Below, piece after piece: positions 1 through 44,471 of a DNA stretch of 64,000 nt (position 1 is the first letter of the stretch; each line of letters opens with the position of its first letter). The notes below the pieces were generated by a model. The model was given only the letters and a program-made list of their open reading frames with translations, searched no databases and had not been told where the DNA came from. The stretch covers positions 36,908 to 100,907 of IMG/VR virus record IMGVR_UViG_3300033145_000692; one strand, written 5' to 3'. The translations under genes and the position numbers were made by a program. The DNA is from a virus.

Positions 1-811
1 ACCGGAAGGGACTCTCGCCGCTGCTTCTGAATTCATATTCTGGTGCATGTTTCTTGATATCCTTTTTGATCTCAGCATCACTCAGGTAACCTGCTGCCCA
101 TGCCATCAGACGAGGTGGGAGCCCATTGATACCAGCGTTCAACATCACCGCTGCCATCTTACTCAACTGCGCTTTGGTTTTCTTATACCGAAACTTTCTG
201 GTGACAGGTACCCCACGGCGGGTCTTTTTTCCAGCCTTCTTCTCCTTGAACTTGATGATCTTATCAGCGGCGGCAACTTGCTTGTCTTCTGGTAGCTGAC
301 AGATCGCTTCGATATTCACTGCCGACAACAAGCCAAGTGCTGCCTTTATCTGCACCTTCTCAGGAAGCTTCAATAGACGAAGACGGATATGAACCCATCT
401 GGTTGGTCTCTTCAACTCCTTTGAAGCTGAACGAAGTGGTACCCCCTCTGGATAGAGTGCCTCGACTGCCTTTGCTTCCTCAAGCATGTTGAGGTCTTTA
501 CGCTCCAGATTCTCAGTGAGGTTGAGCAGTCTCGCCTGGTGCTCATCCAAACCTTTGAAGACAATCGCTGGAATAGTTTCCCACCTCAACAAGGACTCTA
601 CCGCTTTGAATCGCCGGTGCCCAGCCAACAATCTGAATCGCCCTTCCCACGGTTGGACGGCTATGGGGAACTGCAAACCGATCTCTTTGATTGAGTCTGC
701 CAGTTCAATAATTGACTGAATCGTGAAAGCACCTCGACAGTTGAAACGCTCATCATATAGGATATCCTCAAGAGGAATCTCATAGGCATCATACTGTTCA
801 AGGCGCTTCAT
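1..811 (-). CDS. ParB/Spo0J-family protein (runs off the left edge; not in ORF track)
   Basis: Manual translation from ATG 811: MKRLEQYDAYEIPLEDI...ELADSIKEIGLQFPIAV...RFRLLAGHRRFKA...LTENLERKDLNMLEEA, giving ParB N-domain GxRR and ENLxRxDL motifs followed by an HTH. The frame is open to position 2. Confidence 0.9.
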   Translation of the reverse strand, partial: MKRLEQYDAYEIPLEDILYDERFNCRGAFTIQSIIELADSIKEIGLQFPIAVQPWEGRFRLLAGHRRFKAVESLLRWETIPAIVFKGLDEHQARLLNLTENLERKDLNMLEEAKAVEALYPEGVPLRSASKELKRPTRWVHIRLRLLKLPEKVQIKAALGLLSAVNIEAICQLPEDKQVAAADKIIKFKEKKAGKKTRRGVPVTRKFRYKKTKAQLSKMAAVMLNAGINGLPPRLMAWAAGYLSDAEIKKDIKKHAPEYEFRSSGESPFR

Positions 812-813
812 GT

Positions 814-1437
814 CTACGTCCACATATACTGTCTCACGGCAGCCAGACGTTGGAGCATCTCATCAGACTGATCCTCCATATTCTGTTCCAACTCACTGGC
901 TTCCTTTGTCAACGCGCGGTACTTGTCTTCCTGTCCATCTGTTTCAAAATGGAAGACCATCTGTCGGAGATTATTTTGAGGAGGATCAAGTTCCCTATGG
1001 TCGATCAAAGGTGAACACTCGCGGATGAGTTTCCAGATATTGTTGGTGGCTTCCTGGTACTCTTTCTGGTAGGTGATGTTCCACCAGTCCCAGATTTCCT
1101 TCATCTCATCCATGACATACTTGCCACCAATCTTCTTGGGACCTTCCTCACCAAACCAGAGGACATGTCCAGGTGAGCATTCATTCTCAATGAACTGCCC
1201 AAGAATCTCCATTGACATGTGCAGCAGAAGTTCCCGGCGATCACACCAAGAATGACAAAGCGTTCGTGGCTTGACCGTGGAGTATCTGTTCCAACAGAAA
1301 TTCTTTACCCACTGCCATATCGGACCAAGTCTGTAATCGTATGGAATCCGATAGTACACATCCATGACCTTGTCTTCTAAGGTCTCAGTCATCTGTCTAA
1401 CCTTGGTCTTAATCACGTCAATCTCCAAAAAAATCAT
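814..1437 (-). CDS. Hypothetical phage protein
   Basis: ORF of about 207 aa with GGAG RBS before MIFLE, ending in a Trp-rich LAAVRQYMWT and abutting the ParB start. Confidence 0.7.
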   Translation of the reverse strand: MIFLEIDVIKTKVRQMTETLEDKVMDVYYRIPYDYRLGPIWQWVKNFCWNRYSTVKPRTLCHSWCDRRELLLHMSMEILGQFIENECSPGHVLWFGEEGPKKIGGKYVMDEMKEIWDWWNITYQKEYQEATNNIWKLIRECSPLIDHRELDPPQNNLRQMVFHFETDGQEDKYRALTKEASELEQNMEDQSDEMLQRLAAVRQYMWT

Positions 1438-34488: not shown

Positions 34489-35523
34489 CTATTGGGCGGT
34501 TCGGTTTATTGTTGGCTGGGTCACATTGCAGCTACCAGAGACAGCAACACTTGCTTCGCCTAGATCAACTTCTCGACTATTCGATCGGAAGTCAGAGAAG
34601 ACAGTCGTTTCGATCGCCTGCGTAGTGCAGATTGGGGTGTGGACCACCTCAATGTCAATCGCGTAGGGTTCGCACACGTCACTTGACGCACTCACCCACC
34701 CGGAAGCCCCACCCTCCTGCTTCAAAGCATCCATCGGAGAGATGGTTTCGCCAGTACCGGTCGTAATGTACTCATACACAAAGTCGAGACTCACATCCAT
34801 CGGGACATCGTTACCGGCACGAACTGTGTCAAGGACACCTCGGTCGAGATCGTACTCATACTCGTTCGCTTCCGTGTAGGTCACATTGCCTTCACCAACC
34901 TTAATGTCGATCTGCTGAGGAAGGAACGTGATAGCCTTACCATTTATGGGCAGGTTGGCAGCATCCAATGCGGGAGTGAAAGTCAACTCCCAAGTTGTTG
35001 CACCTGCATGGAGGAGTGTCACATCCTCCGAACCGGCGTCGGCAAGATCAACATCCTGGATTGTCATCAACGCAACATCGGTGGCAAGGTAGGTTCCCTT
35101 ATACTCGACAATATACGAGACACCAGCAGAACCGGTAACCTCAATATCACCAGCAGTGATATTGGCAAGAAGTTCGAGAGCCGCTTGAACAGCCGCCGGC
35201 GTTGCATTATAAGCAATGCTGGCGGTAGGACCTTCACCATCCCATGTCAGGGTATAGTTACCACTACTTGGTGTATCCAAGAAAATGGTTTGTTGCTCGT
35301 TGGAATTCGCAGCCGTGATTGTGAAGACTGTCAACGGAGACATGTCAGCAACAGTGAAACGGACACCAACGGGTAGGATTGTCACAGCACTTGGGAGATC
35401 GGCAATCGTGTCAATCTCCAGAGTCGTATCGGTCCCTGCAATCGCAACGTCTTCGACAGCAGCAGAACCATCATAGCCGTCCTTCATTCGGACAACTGTG
35501 TTCTTAAGTTCGATCCTGGCGAT
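34489..35523 (-). CDS. Major tail tube protein 2, carrying an inserted decoration domain; probable ATC start
   Basis: Paralog of 35535..36293. TAAGGAGGT followed by ATC GCC AGG ATC GAA CTT AAG gives (M)ARIELKN, matching the paralog N-terminus. Confidence 0.8.
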   Translation of the reverse strand: MARIELKNTVVRMKDGYDGSAAVEDVAIAGTDTTLEIDTIADLPSAVTILPVGVRFTVADMSPLTVFTITAANSNEQQTIFLDTPSSGNYTLTWDGEGPTASIAYNATPAAVQAALELLANITAGDIEVTGSAGVSYIVEYKGTYLATDVALMTIQDVDLADAGSEDVTLLHAGATTWELTFTPALDAANLPINGKAITFLPQQIDIKVGEGNVTYTEANEYEYDLDRGVLDTVRAGNDVPMDVSLDFVYEYITTGTGETISPMDALKQEGGASGWVSASSDVCEPYAIDIEVVHTPICTTQAIETTVFSDFRSNSREVDLGEASVAVSGSCNVTQPTINRTAQ

Positions 35524-35534
35524 ATCACACCTCC

Positions 35535-36293
35535 TTACTGGGCGGTTCTGGAAACAGAGGGTTGGGTCACATTACAACGACCAGAGACAGCAACGCTTGC
35601 TTCACCAATGTCAACTTCACGACTGTCTGATCGAAAGTCCGAGAAAATCGTTGTCTCAATTGCCTGTGTTGAACAGATCGGTGTATGGACCACCTCAATG
35701 TCAACCGCATAGGGCTCACAGGCGTCACTAGAAGCGCTTCTCCATTCGGAAGCCCCTCCAGCCTGCTTCAAGGCATCCATCGGAGAGACAGCCTCTGCGG
35801 TATGCGTAGTGATGTACTCGTACACAAAGTCAAGACTCACATCCATCGGAACTTCGTTGCCAGCACGGACAGTATCGAGGATGCCTCGGTCGAGATCATA
35901 CTCATACTCGTTCGCTTCCGTGTAGGTCACGTTACCGTCTCCGATCTTGATGTCAATCTGAATCGGAGCGAAAGTAACGACTCCTTCATCAAGGTATGTC
36001 CCTGCACCCAGGGCGGGTGTAAAGACAATGTTGGTTGTAGTCGACGCCCCATTGGAGGGAGTTCGTTCTGTGACGGTATGGACCGTCGTGGCAGCCGTTT
36101 CACCTACAACAGTAAAACGAGCACCAATCGGAACCACATCGGTTCCTAGCCCCCCGGCGTTGAGCACAAGGGTGTTAATGTCAAATTCAGTGTCGGTTAC
36201 GACTGGAGCCGTAGTATCCTCGTCAATTGCACCTGCTCCACTGAGACCGTCCTTGATACGGACAATTGTGTTTTTAAGTTCGATGCGTGCCAA
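35535..36293 (-). CDS. Major tail tube protein 1 (TTG start)
   Basis: AGGAGG RBS; lies between tail terminator and chaperone; C-terminal half near-identical to tube 2. Confidence 0.8.
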   Translation of the reverse strand: MARIELKNTIVRIKDGLSGAGAIDEDTTAPVVTDTEFDINTLVLNAGGLGTDVVPIGARFTVVGETAATTVHTVTERTPSNGASTTTNIVFTPALGAGTYLDEGVVTFAPIQIDIKIGDGNVTYTEANEYEYDLDRGILDTVRAGNEVPMDVSLDFVYEYITTHTAEAVSPMDALKQAGGASEWRSASSDACEPYAVDIEVVHTPICSTQAIETTIFSDFRSDSREVDIGEASVAVSGRCNVTQPSVSRTAQ

Positions 36294-40371: not shown

Positions 40372-40887
40372 CTATGAGACTCTCGATAATCTGATTGCGT
40401 CATCATCACGTAAGAACGGTTTCAACCAACGCCATGCTTGTGGGGTCGGTACACCGTTTATGATGTGTTCAAGTGGAACCTGACTGCGTGAGTATGAGGT
40501 CCTCACCGAACCATAGCCTTGGCTTACGATGCCAAGATTTTCGAGTTCGAGTTCGGGGTCCTTCCCATCAAGTAGATCGTGTGCAATCTCGTATGTCGCC
40601 CTCCGAATAACTTCAGGGACTTCCGTGTCAGCACCCCTGGGGAACTCCAGGGGCTGTGCCGCCTCGGCGACACGAATCTCTGCATCCGTTGCATCTGAGT
40701 CAGCTTCCAATAATGTGTAAACAGCGCTCTTGTAACCCTTGTAGTTGAGGGCGTCAACTATCAACGTTGCAGCCCATAGGGATTTCGGTCGGTCAACAAC
40801 ACTAGCCAAAGACCAAGCTCGTTCGTGGAGGCGTGCCGCAAAGTATTCGGTCGCTTCCACGACGGTTCCATAATAGTCTTGATTCAT
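40372..40887 (-). CDS. Head-tail adaptor (DnaT_2-like)
   Basis: YGTVVEATEYF...QPLEFPR...VPEVIRRA...WLKPFL. Confidence 0.75.
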   Translation of the reverse strand: MNQDYYGTVVEATEYFAARLHERAWSLASVVDRPKSLWAATLIVDALNYKGYKSAVYTLLEADSDATDAEIRVAEAAQPLEFPRGADTEVPEVIRRATYEIAHDLLDGKDPELELENLGIVSQGYGSVRTSYSRSQVPLEHIINGVPTPQAWRWLKPFLRDDDAIRLSRVS

Positions 40888-40895
40888 GGTTTCTC

Positions 40896-43800
40896 CTATT
40901 GACCTACCCAGGAAAACTTACTCTCCTTGGATGCTTCTACAGTTTCAACAATGGTAACAGTTTTCGTTGCACCTTTTTTAGTCTCGGCAACACTGACTGT
41001 CAACGCATTACCGGCGACCGATGTCGCAGGTGTGAAGGTGGCAGCATGTCCAGCAATTGACGTTGCTGGGGTGATAGTTGCCGTGTGTCCTTCTGTTGAT
41101 GTCGCTGGTGTAACAGTAGCCTCGTTACCAGGAGTCGGTGTAGCTGGTGTAAAAGTGGCATCGTTACCAGGAGTCGGTGTCGCTGGTGTGAAAGTGGCAG
41201 TATTCCCAGGAGTCTCTTCAGCAATAACAGGTGTACCGCCAAGTAGGAGTGTGGAATCGGCAGTCATAAGAGCAACATCAGTTGCAGCATTAGTACCTTG
41301 GAATTCCACAACCCAGTCGGTCCCTGGACCAGCGCCACCTGTAACAGCAACAGTGTCGATGTTGCTAAGCAACTCCAATGCTGTCTTAATATCGGCGGCT
41401 ACATCATCATACGTTATCGCTCCGGTTGGACCTTGACCATCGAAGGTCAATGTGAACGAACCACTGTCGGAGTCATTAGGAATGTTGATTGTCTGTGTCT
41501 CGTTGACAGCAGCCACACCCTTAACAGTTTCAGTGATAGTCACAGTCTTACCGGAAAGAAGTGTACCATCCCCACCCATCTGAACCACTCCGGTATCAGC
41601 GAGGGCACCTTGGAATTCACAAGCCCATTCAGGAGCCGTACCAGTAACTGACATGTCACTGTCACCGATGTTAGTCAAAGCGATTAGGGAAGCCTGTACT
41701 ACACCAGCGGAGGCGTTATATGCAATCGTGCTGGTTGTCTGACCATTATAGGTCAGTGTGAAAGTTCCTCCGGTTACTGTTGCTGGAATCGAGACGGTTT
41801 GAATCTCGTTGTTGCCACCACCACCTGACTGAGTCTCAATGACAGTCACATCGGAGCCAGTTAAAAGGGCTCCATCGGCGGTCATCGCATCAATATCAGC
41901 ACCAGCCAGAAGAGTGGCAAATGTAACAACCCAATCGGTATCCGGACCTGGTCCACCAGAGACAACAACATCCCCGGCACCAATGTTTGATAGAGCTTCC
42001 AGAAGACTATCAAGCGTGCCGAAAGTGTCATCAAACTGAATAGCTCCGGTTGTCTGACCAGCATAGGTCAACGTGAATGAGCCACCTGTCGTATCACTAG
42101 GGATACTGACTGTTTGAACTTCATCAACCGCAACAACACCCGGGACAGTTTCAGTGATAGTCACAGTACGACCAGACAACAGAACACCACTTCCTGTGAT
42201 CGCAGAGATAGGCTGTTGCTTCAAATTGACGCCAAACTCAACTTCCCAAGCAGGGGCAGTACCAGTGACAGTCAAATCGCCAACAGTAATGCCCGCCAGA
42301 GCTTCCAAAGCGTCCTTGACATCCGTAGTCGAAGCGTCAAAAGCGATGGTGCCAGTGGTATTACCATCCCATGTCAACGTGTATGTTCCACCGGTCGCAT
42401 CGGAATCAATTGTGACACTTTGAACTTCATTTGTTCCAGCAGTTCCCGTGACTTCAGAGAGGTCGGTGAAACCAAGAAGTGCATCAAAAGTAAGTGTGTA
42501 AGGACCACCAGCAGCACCAGTGACAACAACATCAGCAGGAGCAATGTTGGACAAAGCCTCCAAAGCTGCCTGAACTGTTGCAGCATCAGCATCATAGGCA
42601 ATCATCGCGGTAGTCTGAGCATCATAGGTGATGTCAAAAGTATCACCAGCAACTGTACTACCCAATGTGATTGTCTGAATTTCGTCTGTCCCAGCATCGC
42701 CAGTGACTTCCGACACATCCGTATTTTCCAGGAGTTGATCAAAGGTTAGCGTCCAAGGACCTCCAGCAGAACCTGTGACAAGGATATCACCAGCGGTGAC
42801 ATTTGACAAACCTTCCAAAGCGGTTTGAACTGTAGCAGCGGCAGCATCATAAGCAATGTCGTCTGTCGTTTGACCATCATAGGTGACATAAAATGAATCA
42901 CCCGCTATAGTCGAAGCCAATGTGATTGTCTGGATTTCATCAGTTCCACCAACCGCCGTAACCTCAGTCTGAGCAGCATATCCAAGAAGCTCACCAAACG
43001 TCAAAGTGTACGGACCACCAGCAGAACCCGTGACAACACAATCATCGGTGTCAATGCCAGAGAAGACTTCCAAAGCCGTCTGGACTGTCCCTGCGGCAGC
43101 ATCATAAGGAATGTCAGTCGTTGTCTCACCACCCCAAGTGATAGCGAACGTATCACCAATGATAGTTCCACTGAGTGTCAGTGTTTGTACTTCATGGGTA
43201 CCCGCAATGGCGGTTACTTGGGCAAGGTCAGTAAAACCAAGAGTTGCATCAAAAGAAAGTGTGTAAGGACCCCCAGCAGACCCTGATACAACAACATCAC
43301 CAGCGGTTATACCACCCAAAACTTCCAAAGCCGCTTCAACTGTTGCAGCAGAAGCATCATAAGGAATAGGAGTGGTCGTAGCAGCAGAATAGGTGATGTC
43401 AAAGGTATCACCAACTTGTGTGTTGGAAAGTGTCAGTGTTTGAACTTCGTCTCTCCCAGCGTCACCAGTGACTTCCGACACATTCGTATTGGCCAAGAGT
43501 TGATCGAAGGTTAGTGTCCAAGGACCACCGGCACCACCAGTAACAATGATGTCACCAGCGGTTACATTCGACAGAGCTACCAAAGCTGCCTGAACTGTAG
43601 CAGCGACGGCATCAAGGGGAATGTCGGTCGTTGTCTGACCATCATAGGTGATATAGAACACATCACCAGCTTGTGTGCTTGTGAGTGCCACAGTCTGGAT
43701 TTCATCAGTACCACCAACACCTGTGATGGCTCCCATGTCTGTGAGATCGAGATTGCCAGCGAAGGTTACAACTACTGGCGTACCAGGGGCGGGACCACCA

Positions 43801-44471
43801 GACAGTACAACATCGCCAGATTCGATACCATCAAGGGCTACCAGAGCCGCAAGGATCGTGGTGTTATTGTCGTCGATATCCAATACAGTGGTCTCCTTGG
43901 CGTCCCAAGTCAACGTATACGTATCCGTAGAAGCATTACCCGAATAGGAAATTGTTTGAATTTCGTCAACACCTACATCAGAGGCAACAATGAGGGACTG
44001 GTCAAGACCTGCAAGATCACCTGTGAACTCGACAGTCCAGGGACCTCCACCAGAACCAGTGATGGTCCCATTACCAGCACCTACTGTCGAAAGACCCTCG
44101 AAGGCGGTTTCGACCGTGGCAGCAGAAGCGTCGTACGCAATAGCCGCTGTCATCTGACCATCGAAGGTCAGCTTGAAAGTCTCATCAGCCACACCACTAT
44201 TGTACGTAACAGTCTGCTGTTCGTTCTGAGAAGGATCAGCTACAACAAAAATCTTGGCTGGGTCGTCAATCGCGATCCACAACTCGTCACCAGCAGACAA
44301 CTCGAAACCTGTGATGGTCGTGACACCAGTCGTCCCAACATAAACGATGTCAGAATTACCTGCCGCCGCCTTGATCATAAGACCATTGGAGAGTGTTCGG
44401 GTAGTACTAATAGCGGCTGCCGCAATTTCGGCACCACCATAACCAGTCTTTATTTCACTAAACGCTGTCAT
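40896..44471 (-). CDS. Large repeat-domain virion decoration/fibre protein (11 'EVQT' domains)
   Basis: 11 copies of an 85-105-aa domain (dEvQt...ftltydGqtT..iaydA..vqaALeaL..i..gdv.VtG..ggpwt.tF) plus seven 13-aa C-terminal repeats. Confidence 0.85.
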   Translation of the reverse strand: MTAFSEIKTGYGGAEIAAAAISTTRTLSNGLMIKAAAGNSDIVYVGTTGVTTITGFELSAGDELWIAIDDPAKIFVVADPSQNEQQTVTYNSGVADETFKLTFDGQMTAAIAYDASAATVETAFEGLSTVGAGNGTITGSGGGPWTVEFTGDLAGLDQSLIVASDVGVDEIQTISYSGNASTDTYTLTWDAKETTVLDIDDNNTTILAALVALDGIESGDVVLSGGPAPGTPVVVTFAGNLDLTDMGAITGVGGTDEIQTVALTSTQAGDVFYITYDGQTTTDIPLDAVAATVQAALVALSNVTAGDIIVTGGAGGPWTLTFDQLLANTNVSEVTGDAGRDEVQTLTLSNTQVGDTFDITYSAATTTPIPYDASAATVEAALEVLGGITAGDVVVSGSAGGPYTLSFDATLGFTDLAQVTAIAGTHEVQTLTLSGTIIGDTFAITWGGETTTDIPYDAAAGTVQTALEVFSGIDTDDCVVTGSAGGPYTLTFGELLGYAAQTEVTAVGGTDEIQTITLASTIAGDSFYVTYDGQTTDDIAYDAAAATVQTALEGLSNVTAGDILVTGSAGGPWTLTFDQLLENTDVSEVTGDAGTDEIQTITLGSTVAGDTFDITYDAQTTAMIAYDADAATVQAALEALSNIAPADVVVTGAAGGPYTLTFDALLGFTDLSEVTGTAGTNEVQSVTIDSDATGGTYTLTWDGNTTGTIAFDASTTDVKDALEALAGITVGDLTVTGTAPAWEVEFGVNLKQQPISAITGSGVLLSGRTVTITETVPGVVAVDEVQTVSIPSDTTGGSFTLTYAGQTTGAIQFDDTFGTLDSLLEALSNIGAGDVVVSGGPGPDTDWVVTFATLLAGADIDAMTADGALLTGSDVTVIETQSGGGGNNEIQTVSIPATVTGGTFTLTYNGQTTSTIAYNASAGVVQASLIALTNIGDSDMSVTGTAPEWACEFQGALADTGVVQMGGDGTLLSGKTVTITETVKGVAAVNETQTINIPNDSDSGSFTLTFDGQGPTGAITYDDVAADIKTALELLSNIDTVAVTGGAGPGTDWVVEFQGTNAATDVALMTADSTLLLGGTPVIAEETPGNTATFTPATPTPGNDATFTPATPTPGNEATVTPATSTEGHTATITPATSIAGHAATFTPATSVAGNALTVSVAETKKGATKTVTIVETVEASKESKFSWVGQ

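What the first reader, a model, noticed from the sequence alone, without database searches (positions are those of the whole stretch)
40896..44471. Matryoshka protein: domains nested 8 levels deep and closed by returning C-terminal strands
Seen: after an ~82-aa N-terminal base domain come 11 copies of an 'EVQT' domain. Copies 8-11 each end in their own last strand (e.g. LLSGRTVTITETVPG). Copies 1-7 lack it and run straight into the next copy. After copy 11 there are exactly seven orphan 13-aa strands (40932-41204): NTATFTPATPTPG, NDATFTPATPTPG, NEATVTPATSTEG, HTATITPATSIAG, HAATFTPATSVAG, NALTVSVAETKKG, ATKTVTIVETVEA, then SKESKFSWVGQ. The similarity pattern is mirrored: five similar domains (3-7) match five similar strands (1-5), and two divergent domains (1-2) match two divergent strands (6-7). 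Inference: each domain was inserted into the loop before the last strand of the previous one. The chain would run out and fold back by strand complementation, giving a stalk with both termini in a virion-docking base and a four-domain tip. I do not know of a described phage fibre built by such recursive insertion.
Basis: partly seen in the sequence, partly recalled or inferred. Interest (0 to 1): 0.9.

Follow-up and report, generated by a model that had tools for sequence, protein, structure and literature searches.

The report
Phage fibre of recursively nested domains
A 1191-residue phage structural protein appears to be built like a Russian doll: each of seven domains is interrupted before its last strand by the next domain, and seven strands at the end of the chain come back to close them, which is deeper than any nesting I found described.

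Summary
The ORF at 40896-44471 (- strand) encodes an 83-aa base domain, seven 85-87-aa domains that lack their last strand, and four 102-105-aa domains that keep it. Then come exactly seven 13-aa strands and a short FSWVGQ end.

The nested reading is strongly supported. In 39 distinct relatives, the tail after the last domain is 26 + 13.1 aa per incomplete domain (r = 0.993, 0-8 incomplete domains). It does not depend on the number of complete domains. Two relatives are off by one strand.

Relatives in the same gene slot, after the portal gene, range from base domain only (82-110 aa) to 1191 aa. In the AlphaFold2 model, single-domain templates align across base+C-terminus, D1+S7, D3+S5, D4+S4 and D7...S1. 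These are the pairings the nested model predicts.

It is not categorically new. The domain is the C-terminal-extension (CTE) domain of mycobacteriophage Bxb1, and the solved Bxb1 gp23 already holds a 3-level nest of it, split at another point. Cyanobacterial RNA polymerase Si3 has a described six-level recursion.

New here are the depth (8 levels, 9 in a relative), the variable depth and its use as a fibre stalk. Where the fibre sits on the virion, and whether closure is strictly within one chain, are not shown.

The parts
44223..44471 (-). Base domain, N-terminal part (residues 1-83). It is a small jelly-roll/cupin-like sandwich that lacks its last strand. The start codon overlaps the portal gene's stop (ATGA, 44468-44471).
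   Evidence: pLDDT is about 92 in the full-length model. Templates of about 80 residues (PM2 P1 2vve_B, Z 7.8; cupins; CUB domains) align over model range 1..1191. Base-only homologues are L024 and L025.
43965..44222 (-). D1 (residues 84-169): CTE-like domain without its last strand. Predicted partner: S7.
   Evidence: 9c39_H aligns 84 residues over model range 83..1179.
43704..43964 (-). D2 (residues 170-256): incomplete CTE-like domain. Predicted partner: S6.
   Evidence: The D2-type domain and the S6-type strand are conserved together in P0005 and P0009. No template range was obtained for this pair.
43449..43703 (-). D3 (residues 257-341): incomplete CTE-like domain. Predicted partner: S5.
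   Evidence: 8i4m_A, 7y22_Y, 9ndy_H, 6r21_a and 9m67_A align 78-88 residues over model ranges 254-257..1150-1156.
43194..43448 (-). D4 (residues 342-426): incomplete CTE-like domain. Predicted partner: S4.
   Evidence: 6iwy aligns 87 residues over model range 339..1143.
42939..43193 (-). D5 (residues 427-511): incomplete CTE-like domain. Predicted partner: S3.
   Evidence: It has the lowest pLDDT of the domains (about 57), mirrored by S3 (about 43). The pairing was not seen directly.
42684..42938 (-). D6 (residues 512-596): incomplete CTE-like domain. Predicted partner: S2.
   Evidence: The pairing was not seen directly.
42429..42683 (-). D7 (residues 597-681): innermost incomplete domain. Predicted partner: S1.
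   Evidence: Bxb1 gp23 (9d93_Ma) aligns 247 residues over model range 595..1104, against chain 268..610.
41205..42428 (-). D8-D11 (residues 682-1089): four complete CTE-like domains, each with its own closing strand. This is the innermost insert, the 'tip'.
   Evidence: The Bxb1 capsid CTE (9d9w_Aa) gives Z 13.8, rmsd 2.0, 91 aligned over model 878..985. Patience 8giu_1 gives Z 12.1.
40932..41204 (-). S1-S7 (residues 1090-1180): seven orphan 13-aa strands that return along D7 to D1.
   Evidence: One search gives the sequences. In the model S4-S7 are 8-11-residue strands by DSSP with pLDDT 60-91; S1 and S2 have only short strand segments and S3 none (pLDDT below 50).
40899..40931 (-). SKESKFSWVGQ (residues 1181-1191): the last strand of the base domain. 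The stop codon is at 40896-40898.
   Evidence: Residues 1185-1190 are a strand with pLDDT about 92. Model ranges reach 1191 for base-domain templates. W1188 is invariant. The same motif follows the base directly in L024 and L025.

Best explanation
The gene encodes a virion-surface fibre of an uncultured phage with a genome of about 101 kb. Its architecture is base[D1[D2[D3[D4[D5[D6[D7[D8 D9 D10 D11]S1]S2]S3]S4]S5]S6]S7]end. The base is a small jelly-roll whose last hairpin has been opened. The repeated unit is the ferredoxin-like CTE domain known from the capsid, tail tube and Dit of mycobacteriophage Bxb1. In D1-D7 the next domain is inserted just before the last beta-strand. The chain therefore runs out through seven domain cores and makes four complete domains at the far end. 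It then returns as seven 13-residue strands, each completing one core in reverse order, and the final FSWVGQ strand closes the base. This topology is shown by counting in relatives and by predicted structure.

The rest is inferred. Every pair of neighbouring stalk domains is joined by two chain segments, and both termini lie in the base, which should give a stiffer stalk with no free end. Folding has to finish from the tip back to the base, so a docking-competent base forms only when the whole fibre is made. Stalk length changes when the domain array (255-bp units) and the strand array (39-bp units) expand or shrink separately, and selection keeps the two counts equal.

The attachment site is inferred only from gene position. 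The gene lies directly after, and overlaps, the portal gene in the head module, so I favour the head or neck over the tail.
For: Anatomy.

Comparative test: in 39 distinct complete relatives the tail after the last core is 26.1 + 13.1 aa per incomplete domain (r = 0.993, 0 to 8 incomplete domains). 37 of 39 lie within 7 aa, and there is no dependence on the number of complete domains (r = 0.08) (first set). Proteins with the same total of 7 domains have tails of 36, 53, 64 and 107 aa for 1, 2, 3 and 6 incomplete domains.

Type-specific counts: P0005 and P0009 have one D3-type domain and one 'TPAT' strand, while the window protein has five of each. The D1-type domain goes with the last strand and the D2-type with the penultimate strand.

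Graded series in one conserved slot (terL-portal-X-171aa-scaffold-capsid): base only (L024 110 aa, L025), base plus one complete domain (L020, 202 aa), and so on up to 1191 aa.

The last strand is part of the solved fold. Bxb1 gp14 and gp19 end with it, and D10 with its own strand superposes on the Bxb1 capsid CTE at Z 13.8, rmsd 2.0.

AlphaFold2 full-length model: mean pLDDT 81.3. The pLDDT of each strand mirrors that of its predicted partner domain. Template ranges show base+C-terminus, D1+S7, D3+S5, D4+S4 and D7..S1 as single domains. An independent model of the 299-aa relative P0160 shows D1 plus its orphan strand as one domain skipping D2 (8giu_1: Z 11.4, rmsd 2.0, 86 aligned over 85..290). 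Its nested pair superposes on the nested pair of solved Bxb1 gp23 (Z 16.2, 177 aligned).

In-trans fold of residues 1-681 with 1090-1191: verdict 'weak support'. ipSAE was 0.51 (runs 0.54/0.51/0.48) and the best of 3 controls was 0.00. The mark was reached by 58 of 80 solved complexes and 2 of 110 mismatched pairs. At 0.60 or under it was reached by only 7 of those 80 and by both mismatches that passed. The runs agree in at least 90% of contacts, and partner pLDDT is at least 66. My own alignment was used, so the counts hold only roughly. Chain 1 pLDDT was 86-87 with the real tail and 70 with unrelated partners; tail pLDDT was 66-69 against 27.
Against: No coordinates could be read, so the pairings D2+S6, D5+S3 and D6+S2 were not seen directly. 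The middle of the model (D5, S3) has pLDDT below 60, and pTM is only 0.37. Two relatives break the count rule by one strand: P0133 has 4 incomplete domains and 3 strands, and L014 has 4 and 5. Both breaks lie at near-identical adjacent strand repeats. Within D3-D7 the similarity of strands follows adjacency, not the similarity of their supposed partner domains, so pairing looks generic rather than specific. All structural evidence is prediction. The complex test gave only weak support. Nothing shows where, or whether, the protein sits on the virion.
Confidence: 0.78

Rival explanations
1. The same strand complementation occurs, but between chains. The C-terminal strands of one subunit complete the incomplete domains of a neighbouring subunit in a dimer or trimer (donor-strand exchange or 3D domain swapping). 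The stalk would then be an interlocked oligomer rather than a folded-back monomer.
For: Equal counts fit this reading as well. Phage fibres are often oligomers (established knowledge). The recursively inserted domains of RNAP Si3 are reported to exchange secondary-structure elements (PMC11515920). The in-trans fold of stalk plus tail scored above its controls (weak support: 0.51 against 0.00).
Against: In the base-only relatives the last strand follows the previous one after about 6 residues, and in L020 the single domain closes directly. Closure within one chain is therefore the ancestral state. The monomer AlphaFold2 models are self-consistent in cis. An antiparallel return of 13 aa per domain of about 85 aa fits the geometry of one chain. 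No oligomer was tested.
Confidence: 0.12
2. The C-terminal repeats are only a Pro/Thr-rich linker or a glycosylation tract, and D1-D7 are a shorter, self-sufficient variant of the domain. The equal number seven would be coincidence.
For: S1-S5 (xTATFTPATPTPG) look like a low-complexity PT linker, and phmmer aligns them to the fibrinogen alpha-chain repeats at E = 0.27.
Against: The count rule holds from 0 to 8 incomplete domains in 37 of 39 relatives. In most relatives the strands are not PT-rich (for example LTVGVVETTKG in P0013) and they resemble the closing strands of complete domains. Stalk pLDDT falls from 86-87 to 70 when the tail is replaced.
Confidence: 0.02
3. The architecture is as described, but the protein is a tail or baseplate fibre (receptor-binding), not a head or neck appendage.
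For: The PHROG hits for the repeat domain are all families annotated as tail proteins. The nearest solved relative of the repeat is the Bxb1 Dit/tail-tip cage. The phage's own putative tail-tube paralogue carries one copy.
Against: In about 23 related contigs the gene always lies between the portal gene and the 171-aa/scaffold/capsid genes, usually overlapping or abutting the portal stop. This is far upstream of the tape-measure gene. The domain also decorates the Bxb1 capsid.
Confidence: 0.2

Closest known systems
CTE-like domains of mycobacteriophage Bxb1: capsid gp14 (PDB 9D9W/9D9X), tail tube gp19 (9D94), Dit/'tail tip cage' gp23 (9D93); Freeman et al., Cell 2025, doi 10.1016/j.cell.2025.03.027 (not held; cited through PMC13252515)
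   Same: It is the same domain. phmmer gives E = 8e-19 to gp23. D10 superposes on the capsid CTE at Z 13.8, rmsd 2.0, 91 residues. By my reading of its sequence and HMM coordinates, gp23 is itself a 3-level nest of this domain: N-terminal parts covering hmm 1-58, 1-55 and 1-73, then C-terminal parts covering 26-82 and 58-81. The nested pair of the P0160 model superposes on it (Z 16.2, 177 residues).
   Different: In gp23 the split lies after the fourth strand, not before the last strand. The depth is 3, not 8. The host is a Dit in the tail tip, not a small jelly-roll base. There is no array of short orphan strands. I could not read how the authors describe it.
Si3 insertion of cyanobacterial RNA polymerase beta' (HABAS/SBHM domains inserted into one another)
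   Same: It shows recursive insertion of homologous domains into each other (A1-B1-C-B2-A2...). A survey of 2.7 million ECOD domains describes it as a six-level nested architecture (PMC13114784; PMC11515920).
   Different: The fold is unrelated and it is a cellular enzyme. The depth is 6 against 8 here (9 in P0013). It is not a linear stalk with a one-strand return, and no population of relatives with graded depth is described.
Contractile tail sheath proteins ('Russian doll' domain arrangement; PMC6088184)
   Same: These are phage structural proteins in which one domain is inserted in the next. Cyanophage A-1(L) sheath carries a domain of similar fold (8kee_A, Z 7.9).
   Different: They have two to three levels of non-homologous domains, and no repeated unit or returning strand array.
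Donor-strand complementation in chaperone-usher pili
   Same: A domain lacking its last strand is completed by a strand encoded elsewhere (established knowledge; reviews listed).
   Different: There the strand comes from another polypeptide and polymerises subunits. Here it most likely comes from the same chain. The fold is ferredoxin-like, not Ig-like, and no chaperone or usher is involved.
Capsid fibres such as T4 Hoc, T5 pb10 and phi29 gp8.5 (from my own knowledge)
   Same: They have an anchoring domain plus a string of small domains projecting from the virion. They are accessory and variable between relatives.
   Different: Those are beads on a single string with a free distal end. Here the string is doubled back, and both ends are in the anchor. 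A capsid location is not shown for this protein.
CUB domain of complement C3/C5 and alpha-2-macroglobulins, interrupted by the thioester domain
   Same: The base domain, together with its distant C-terminal strand, superposes on these CUB domains, which are themselves split by an inserted domain (Z 5-6.2, about 80 residues, model range 1..1191).
   Different: This is only a fold-level resemblance at a Z value that is common for small sandwiches. No homology is implied.

Membership tests
Bxb1-type CTE-like domain (no Pfam model found) | Sequence similarity to the CTE-like repeats of Bxb1 gp23 | tested here: met
   phmmer gives E = 8.4e-19 with three matched stretches. The HMM built from D1-D11 hits gp23, gp14 and gp19.
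Bxb1-type CTE-like domain (no Pfam model found) | Same fold as the solved capsid and tail-tube CTE, including the C-terminal closing strand | tested here: met
   9d9w_Aa: Z 13.8, rmsd 2.0, 91 aligned. 9d94_Jd: Z 11.0. 8giu_1: Z 12.1. This compares a predicted model, not an experimental structure.
Recursive (nested) domain-insertion architecture, as in RNAP Si3 | The sequence order is A1-B1-...-B2-A2: the N-terminal parts come in one order and the C-terminal parts in the reverse order | tested here: met
   The count rule is and the type-specific counts. Discontinuous domains in the model are base+end, D1+S7, D3+S5, D4+S4 and D7..S1. Three of the eight levels were not seen directly.
Recursive (nested) domain-insertion architecture, as in RNAP Si3 | Host and insert are homologous domains | tested here: met
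   All 11 copies match one HMM at E = 1e-29 to 1e-38.
Recursive (nested) domain-insertion architecture, as in RNAP Si3 | Experimental structure showing the nest | not testable with these tools
   Only AlphaFold2/ESMFold2 predictions and the solved relative Bxb1 gp23 are available.
Donor-strand complementation (chaperone-usher type) | A domain lacks its last strand | tested here: met
   D1-D7 end 1-2 aa before the next core, whereas complete copies carry a further 19 aa that include the strand.
Donor-strand complementation (chaperone-usher type) | The strand is donated by a different polypeptide | tested here: inconclusive
   Monomer models close within one chain. The in-trans fold gave weak support only. 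No oligomer was tested.
Pfam PF07249 Cerato-platanin | Double-psi beta-barrel fold over the full profile | tested here: not met
   The hit (42.6 bits, summed over repeats) covers only profile positions 40-99. The modelled domains are ferredoxin/RRM-like and match CTE domains. I treat it as a repeat-driven false match.
Head decoration or head-fibre proteins (Hoc, pb10, gp8.5) | Bound to the capsid surface | not testable with these tools
   Only gene position in the head module is available. No solved close relative of the capsid, the portal or the 171-aa protein was found.

The most novel reading that the evidence does not exclude
This family is a natural, length-tunable 'double-stranded' protein rod. 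Nesting depth runs from 0 to 9 among close relatives and is deeper than the six levels reported as the extreme in a survey of 2.7 million domains. It is set by independent slippage of a domain array and of a strand array, with selection matching the counts. The final closure of the anchor domain by the last seven residues acts as a checkpoint, so only completely synthesised and folded fibres can dock on the virion.
Probability: 0.4. Interest if true: 0.8.

Novelty: new variant of a known kind. Interest (0 to 1): 0.68.

Why it matters
Recursive insertion of a domain into itself is rare. The deepest case I found in the literature is six levels, in one cellular enzyme. Here the same principle reaches eight to nine levels. 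It also occurs as a graded series (0, 1, 2, ... 9) in one gene slot of closely related phages, so the evolutionary steps are visible. The reading predicts a rod whose neighbouring domains are tied twice, with both ends in one anchor. That is a simple design for stiff spacers of adjustable length and is of interest for protein engineering and phage display. It also raises a folding question that can be tested directly: seven domains must wait for strands made up to about a thousand residues later. Finally, it is a warning for annotation, because the 13-aa repeats look like a PT-rich linker and the incomplete domains look like ordinary tandem repeats.

Tried and rejected
- Pfam gives only Cerato-platanin (a repeat-driven partial match, rejected) and sub-threshold hits.
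- Pfam and PHROGs find nothing for the base domain or the base-only relatives.
- The ESM Atlas finds only unnamed viral clusters of about 100 aa. PRD1_P5_spike_N at 0.87 is a lead only.
- A profile of closing strands built from 556 inter-core segments aligned too poorly to score the orphan strands usefully. I dropped it in favour of tail length.
- The permutation test on similarity matrices supports only the group-level mirror, not a one-to-one pairing within D3-D7.
- AlphaFold2 of the 299-aa relative with 8 sequences modelled the base domain poorly (pLDDT below 50), so it gave no fold for the base. The base fold comes from the full-length model only.
- Foldseek on the whole model mainly returned long multi-Ig chains at very low TM-scores.
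- The base-domain search for shorter proteins found a single 297-aa hit.
- The portal protein has no match among 50,697 cultured phage records.
- The capsid, portal and 171-aa proteins have no close solved relatives that would locate the fibre.
- The Bxb1 paper (PMC12124961) is not held. Searches for a description of gp23's nest found nothing.
- The context of the 492-aa proteins with a C-terminal base-like domain (L026-L030, T4-like genes nearby) did not help to place the base domain.
Full report
**What is there.** The - strand ORF 40896..44471 encodes 1191 aa. After an 83-aa N-terminal domain come eleven copies of a domain that starts with E[VI]QT. Copies 1-7 are 85-87 aa and abut the next copy. 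Copies 8-10 are 102-105 aa, and copy 11 is of the same kind. Each of these four carries an extra segment such as LLSGRTVTITETVPG. An HMM of the 84-aa core finds all eleven copies (E = 1e-29 to 1e-38). The gaps between cores are 1-2 aa after copies 1-7 and 19 aa after copies 8-10. From residue 1090 there are exactly seven 13-aa units followed by SKESKFSWVGQ.

**The domain is known and its last strand belongs to it.** phmmer against PDB sequences finds Bxb1 gp23 ('tail tip cage', 9D93) at E = 8e-19. In the AlphaFold2 model (mean pLDDT 81.3, pTM 0.37), copy 10 with its own extra segment superposes on three solved domains:
- the C-terminal extension (CTE) domain of the Bxb1 capsid protein (9d9w_Aa: Z 13.8, rmsd 2.0, 91 residues);
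- phage Patience (8giu_1: Z 12.1);
- the Bxb1 tail tube (9d94_Jd: Z 11.0).

The Bxb1 capsid and tube proteins end with that strand (SISVVSVG, VTVDVV). Copies 1-7 therefore lack an integral strand of a solved fold.

**Comparative test.** Two protein searches and one scan of viral contigs gave 39 distinct complete relatives that have the base domain and a C-terminal xSW[IVL]xx end. In every one, the gaps between cores are either 0-4 aa or 18-25 aa. The tail after the last core is 26.1 + 13.1 aa per incomplete domain (r = 0.993, 0 to 8 incomplete domains, 37 of 39 within 7 aa). It is unrelated to the number of complete domains (r = 0.08) (first set). Four proteins with seven domains each have tails of 36, 53, 64 and 107 aa for 1, 2, 3 and 6 incomplete domains. 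Explicit counts by eye agree: P0013 8=8, P0016 6=6, L015 and P0135 5=5, L011 and P0126 4=4.

There are two exceptions. P0133 equals L011 minus one strand (4 domains, 3 strands), and L014 has 4 domains and 5 strands. Both differ at near-identical adjacent strand units, so slippage or assembly collapse is the likely cause.

The correspondence also holds by type. The 798-807-aa relatives have one D3-type domain and one 'TPAT' strand, and the window protein has five of each. The D1-type domain is conserved together with the last strand and the D2-type with the penultimate one. This gives the reverse order that nesting requires. Within this one protein, the mirror argument from similarity matrices is weaker (nested r = 0.78, rank 155 of 5040; parallel r = -0.42).

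**A graded series in one gene slot.** In 24 related viral contigs the order terL-portal-X-171aa-scaffold-capsid is conserved where the contig reaches far enough (portal E-values from about 1e-78, on a cut gene, to 0.0, mostly 1e-190 to 1e-260), and the base-domain gene X always sits in that slot. X ranges widely in size:
- 82-110 aa, base domain only (L024, L025);
- 202 aa, base plus one complete domain (L020);
- about 300 aa, base[D1[D2]];
- up to 806 aa in these contigs, and 1191 aa here.

In the base-only proteins the last strand (VKWLAV, IGWIMY) follows the previous strand after about six residues. The whole array is therefore an insertion in the last hairpin of the base domain, and FSWVGQ is the displaced last strand of the base.

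**Predicted structure.** Scripts cannot read the coordinates. The structural aligner, however, reports the first and last aligned model residue, and this exposes discontinuous domains:
- Jelly-roll, cupin and CUB templates of about 80 residues align over model range 1..1191, which is the base plus the C-terminal strand (PM2 P1 2vve_B: Z 7.8, rmsd 2.8, 85 aligned).
- 9c39_H aligns 84 residues over 83..1179, which is D1+S7.
- T7-gp12-like and FliD templates align 78-88 residues over 254-257..1150-1156, which is D3+S5.
- 6iwy aligns 87 residues over 339..1143, which is D4+S4.
- Bxb1 gp23 aligns 247 residues over 595..1104, which spans D7 to S1.

All five are the pairings that nesting predicts, and none contradicts it. 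The per-residue confidence of each strand mirrors that of its partner: D1 92 / S7 91, D2 88 / S6 86, D3 88 / S5 82, D4 75 / S4 60, D5 57 / S3 43, D6 70 / S2 57, D7 82 / S1 68.

An independent model of the 299-aa relative P0160 shows the same thing. 8giu_1 aligns 86 residues over 85..290 (Z 11.4, rmsd 2.0) and skips the complete D2 at 174-276.

Folding residues 1-681 and 1090-1191 as two chains gave the verdict 'weak support'. The ipSAE was 0.51 and the best of 3 controls was 0.00. The mark was reached by 58 of 80 solved complexes and 2 of 110 mismatched pairs, but at 0.60 or under by only 7 of those 80 and by both mismatches that passed. The runs agree in at least 90% of contacts and partner pLDDT is at least 66. 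My own alignment was used, so the counts hold only roughly. The stalk's pLDDT was 86-87 with the real tail and 70 with unrelated partners. The tail's pLDDT was 66-69 with the real stalk and 27 with an unrelated chain.

**How it most likely works.** The shown part is the topology: base[D1[...[D7[D8-D11]S1]...]S7]end, which is eight levels of insertion.

The rest is inferred. Each 13-aa strand, extended, spans about one domain, so the chain returns antiparallel along the stalk. Neighbouring domains are then linked twice, and both termini end in the base. This should stiffen the stalk and leave no free end. Folding must complete from the tip inward, and the base can close only after the last residues are made, which would couple docking to completeness.

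Depth seems to evolve by separate changes in the two arrays. Strand similarity follows adjacency (S1/S2 92%, S4/S5 77%), while domain similarity follows another pattern (D3/D6 79%). There are 39-bp and 255-bp DNA repeats, and off-by-one variants exist. Strands of one type therefore look interchangeable, with selection keeping the counts equal.

The function is unproven. Arrays of this domain decorate the capsid, tube and Dit of Bxb1. The gene lies in the head module and overlaps the portal stop codon (ATGA at 44468-44471). I therefore favour a head- or neck-anchored surface fibre whose four complete tip domains, conserved in the 800-aa relatives, contact the environment or host surface.

**Rivals.** Strand exchange between subunits fits the counts equally well and cannot be excluded. 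The short hairpin of base-only relatives and the self-consistent monomer models favour closure within one chain. A plain PT-rich linker is excluded by the count rule and by the non-PT strands of most relatives. A tail location is possible but goes against the conserved synteny.

**Comparison with what is known.** Nesting is not new for this domain. Bxb1 gp23 reads as three N-terminal part-domains followed by the C-terminal parts: HMM positions 1-58, 1-55 and 1-73, then 26-82 and 58-81. The nested pair of P0160 superposes on it (Z 16.2, 177 residues). [quoted passage not shown] The split point there is different, after the fourth strand.

Recursive self-insertion is also described for HABAS domains in cyanobacterial RNAP Si3. 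A 2026 survey of 2.7 million domains presents it as a six-level nest, the example of greatest complexity (PMC13114784, PMC11515920). Tail sheaths have a two- to three-level 'Russian doll' of unlike domains.

Three things are new here: the depth (8 levels, 9 in P0013), the one-strand return that turns the nest into a linear stalk, and the natural series of depths in one gene slot. Other proteins among the hits show the same nest inside different host domains (P0234, P0138, P0147/P0192), so the habit is wider than this family.

**Verdict.** I rate it a new variant of a known kind, with interest 0.68.

Noticed in passing
window 34489-35487 (-) and 35535-36293 (-): Two adjacent paralogous genes (332 and 252 aa) are 76% identical over their last 173 residues. 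The longer one carries a single CTE-like domain (about residues 64-145, E = 7e-23) inserted near its N-terminus. PHROGs matched only that inserted domain (tail-annotated families), and the 252-aa paralogue matched no family. By position, upstream of the tape-measure gene, they may be tail-tube genes, so this could be a decorated and an undecorated tube-protein pair.
   Followed up: partly
L001:13928-15985 (Bxb1 gp23, PDB 9D93): The solved Dit/'tail tip cage' of mycobacteriophage Bxb1 reads as a 3-level nest of the same domain, split after the fourth strand. A glycine-rich insertion sits in the innermost copy. I could not check whether the authors describe it in this way.
   Followed up: partly
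P0133 versus L011:5624-7402; L014:7968-9806: Natural or assembly variants have one strand too few (P0133) or one too many (L014) for their four incomplete domains. Both differences lie at near-identical neighbouring 13-aa units.
   Followed up: partly
L026-L030 (for example L030:6750-8228) and P0185: A base-like domain (GFPLLPGEELF...IHVIGS) lies at the C-terminus of 475-492-aa proteins with ATDLDIR[ND]LT repeats, on contigs with T4-like genes (gp32-like SSB, baseplate hub). It is also at the C-terminus of P0185 after CTE-like domains. The base domain therefore looks like a mobile anchor module.
   Followed up: partly
P0234, P0138, P0147, P0192 (hits): Runs of incomplete CTE-like domains, followed by matching strand arrays, also occur inside other host domains. 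One host has a signal-peptide-like N-terminus, and one is a repeated helical unit (LHGDDGV...TKLDADGGV) that reappears after the array.
   Followed up: partly
window 40372-40887 (-): A 171-aa gene matching the head-tail adaptor Ad1 family (PHROG 477, E = 2e-12) sits between the fibre gene and the scaffold gene. This is an unusual place for an adaptor, and it is conserved in all related contigs.
   Followed up: no
whole genome (G000, 100,907 bp, one contig; the window is 36908-100907): This is a phage genome of about 101 kb and 49% G+C with a P22-type coat protein and a 1465-aa tape-measure protein. Its portal protein has no tblastn match among 50,697 cultured phage records, so the lineage appears to be uncultured.
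   Followed up: partly
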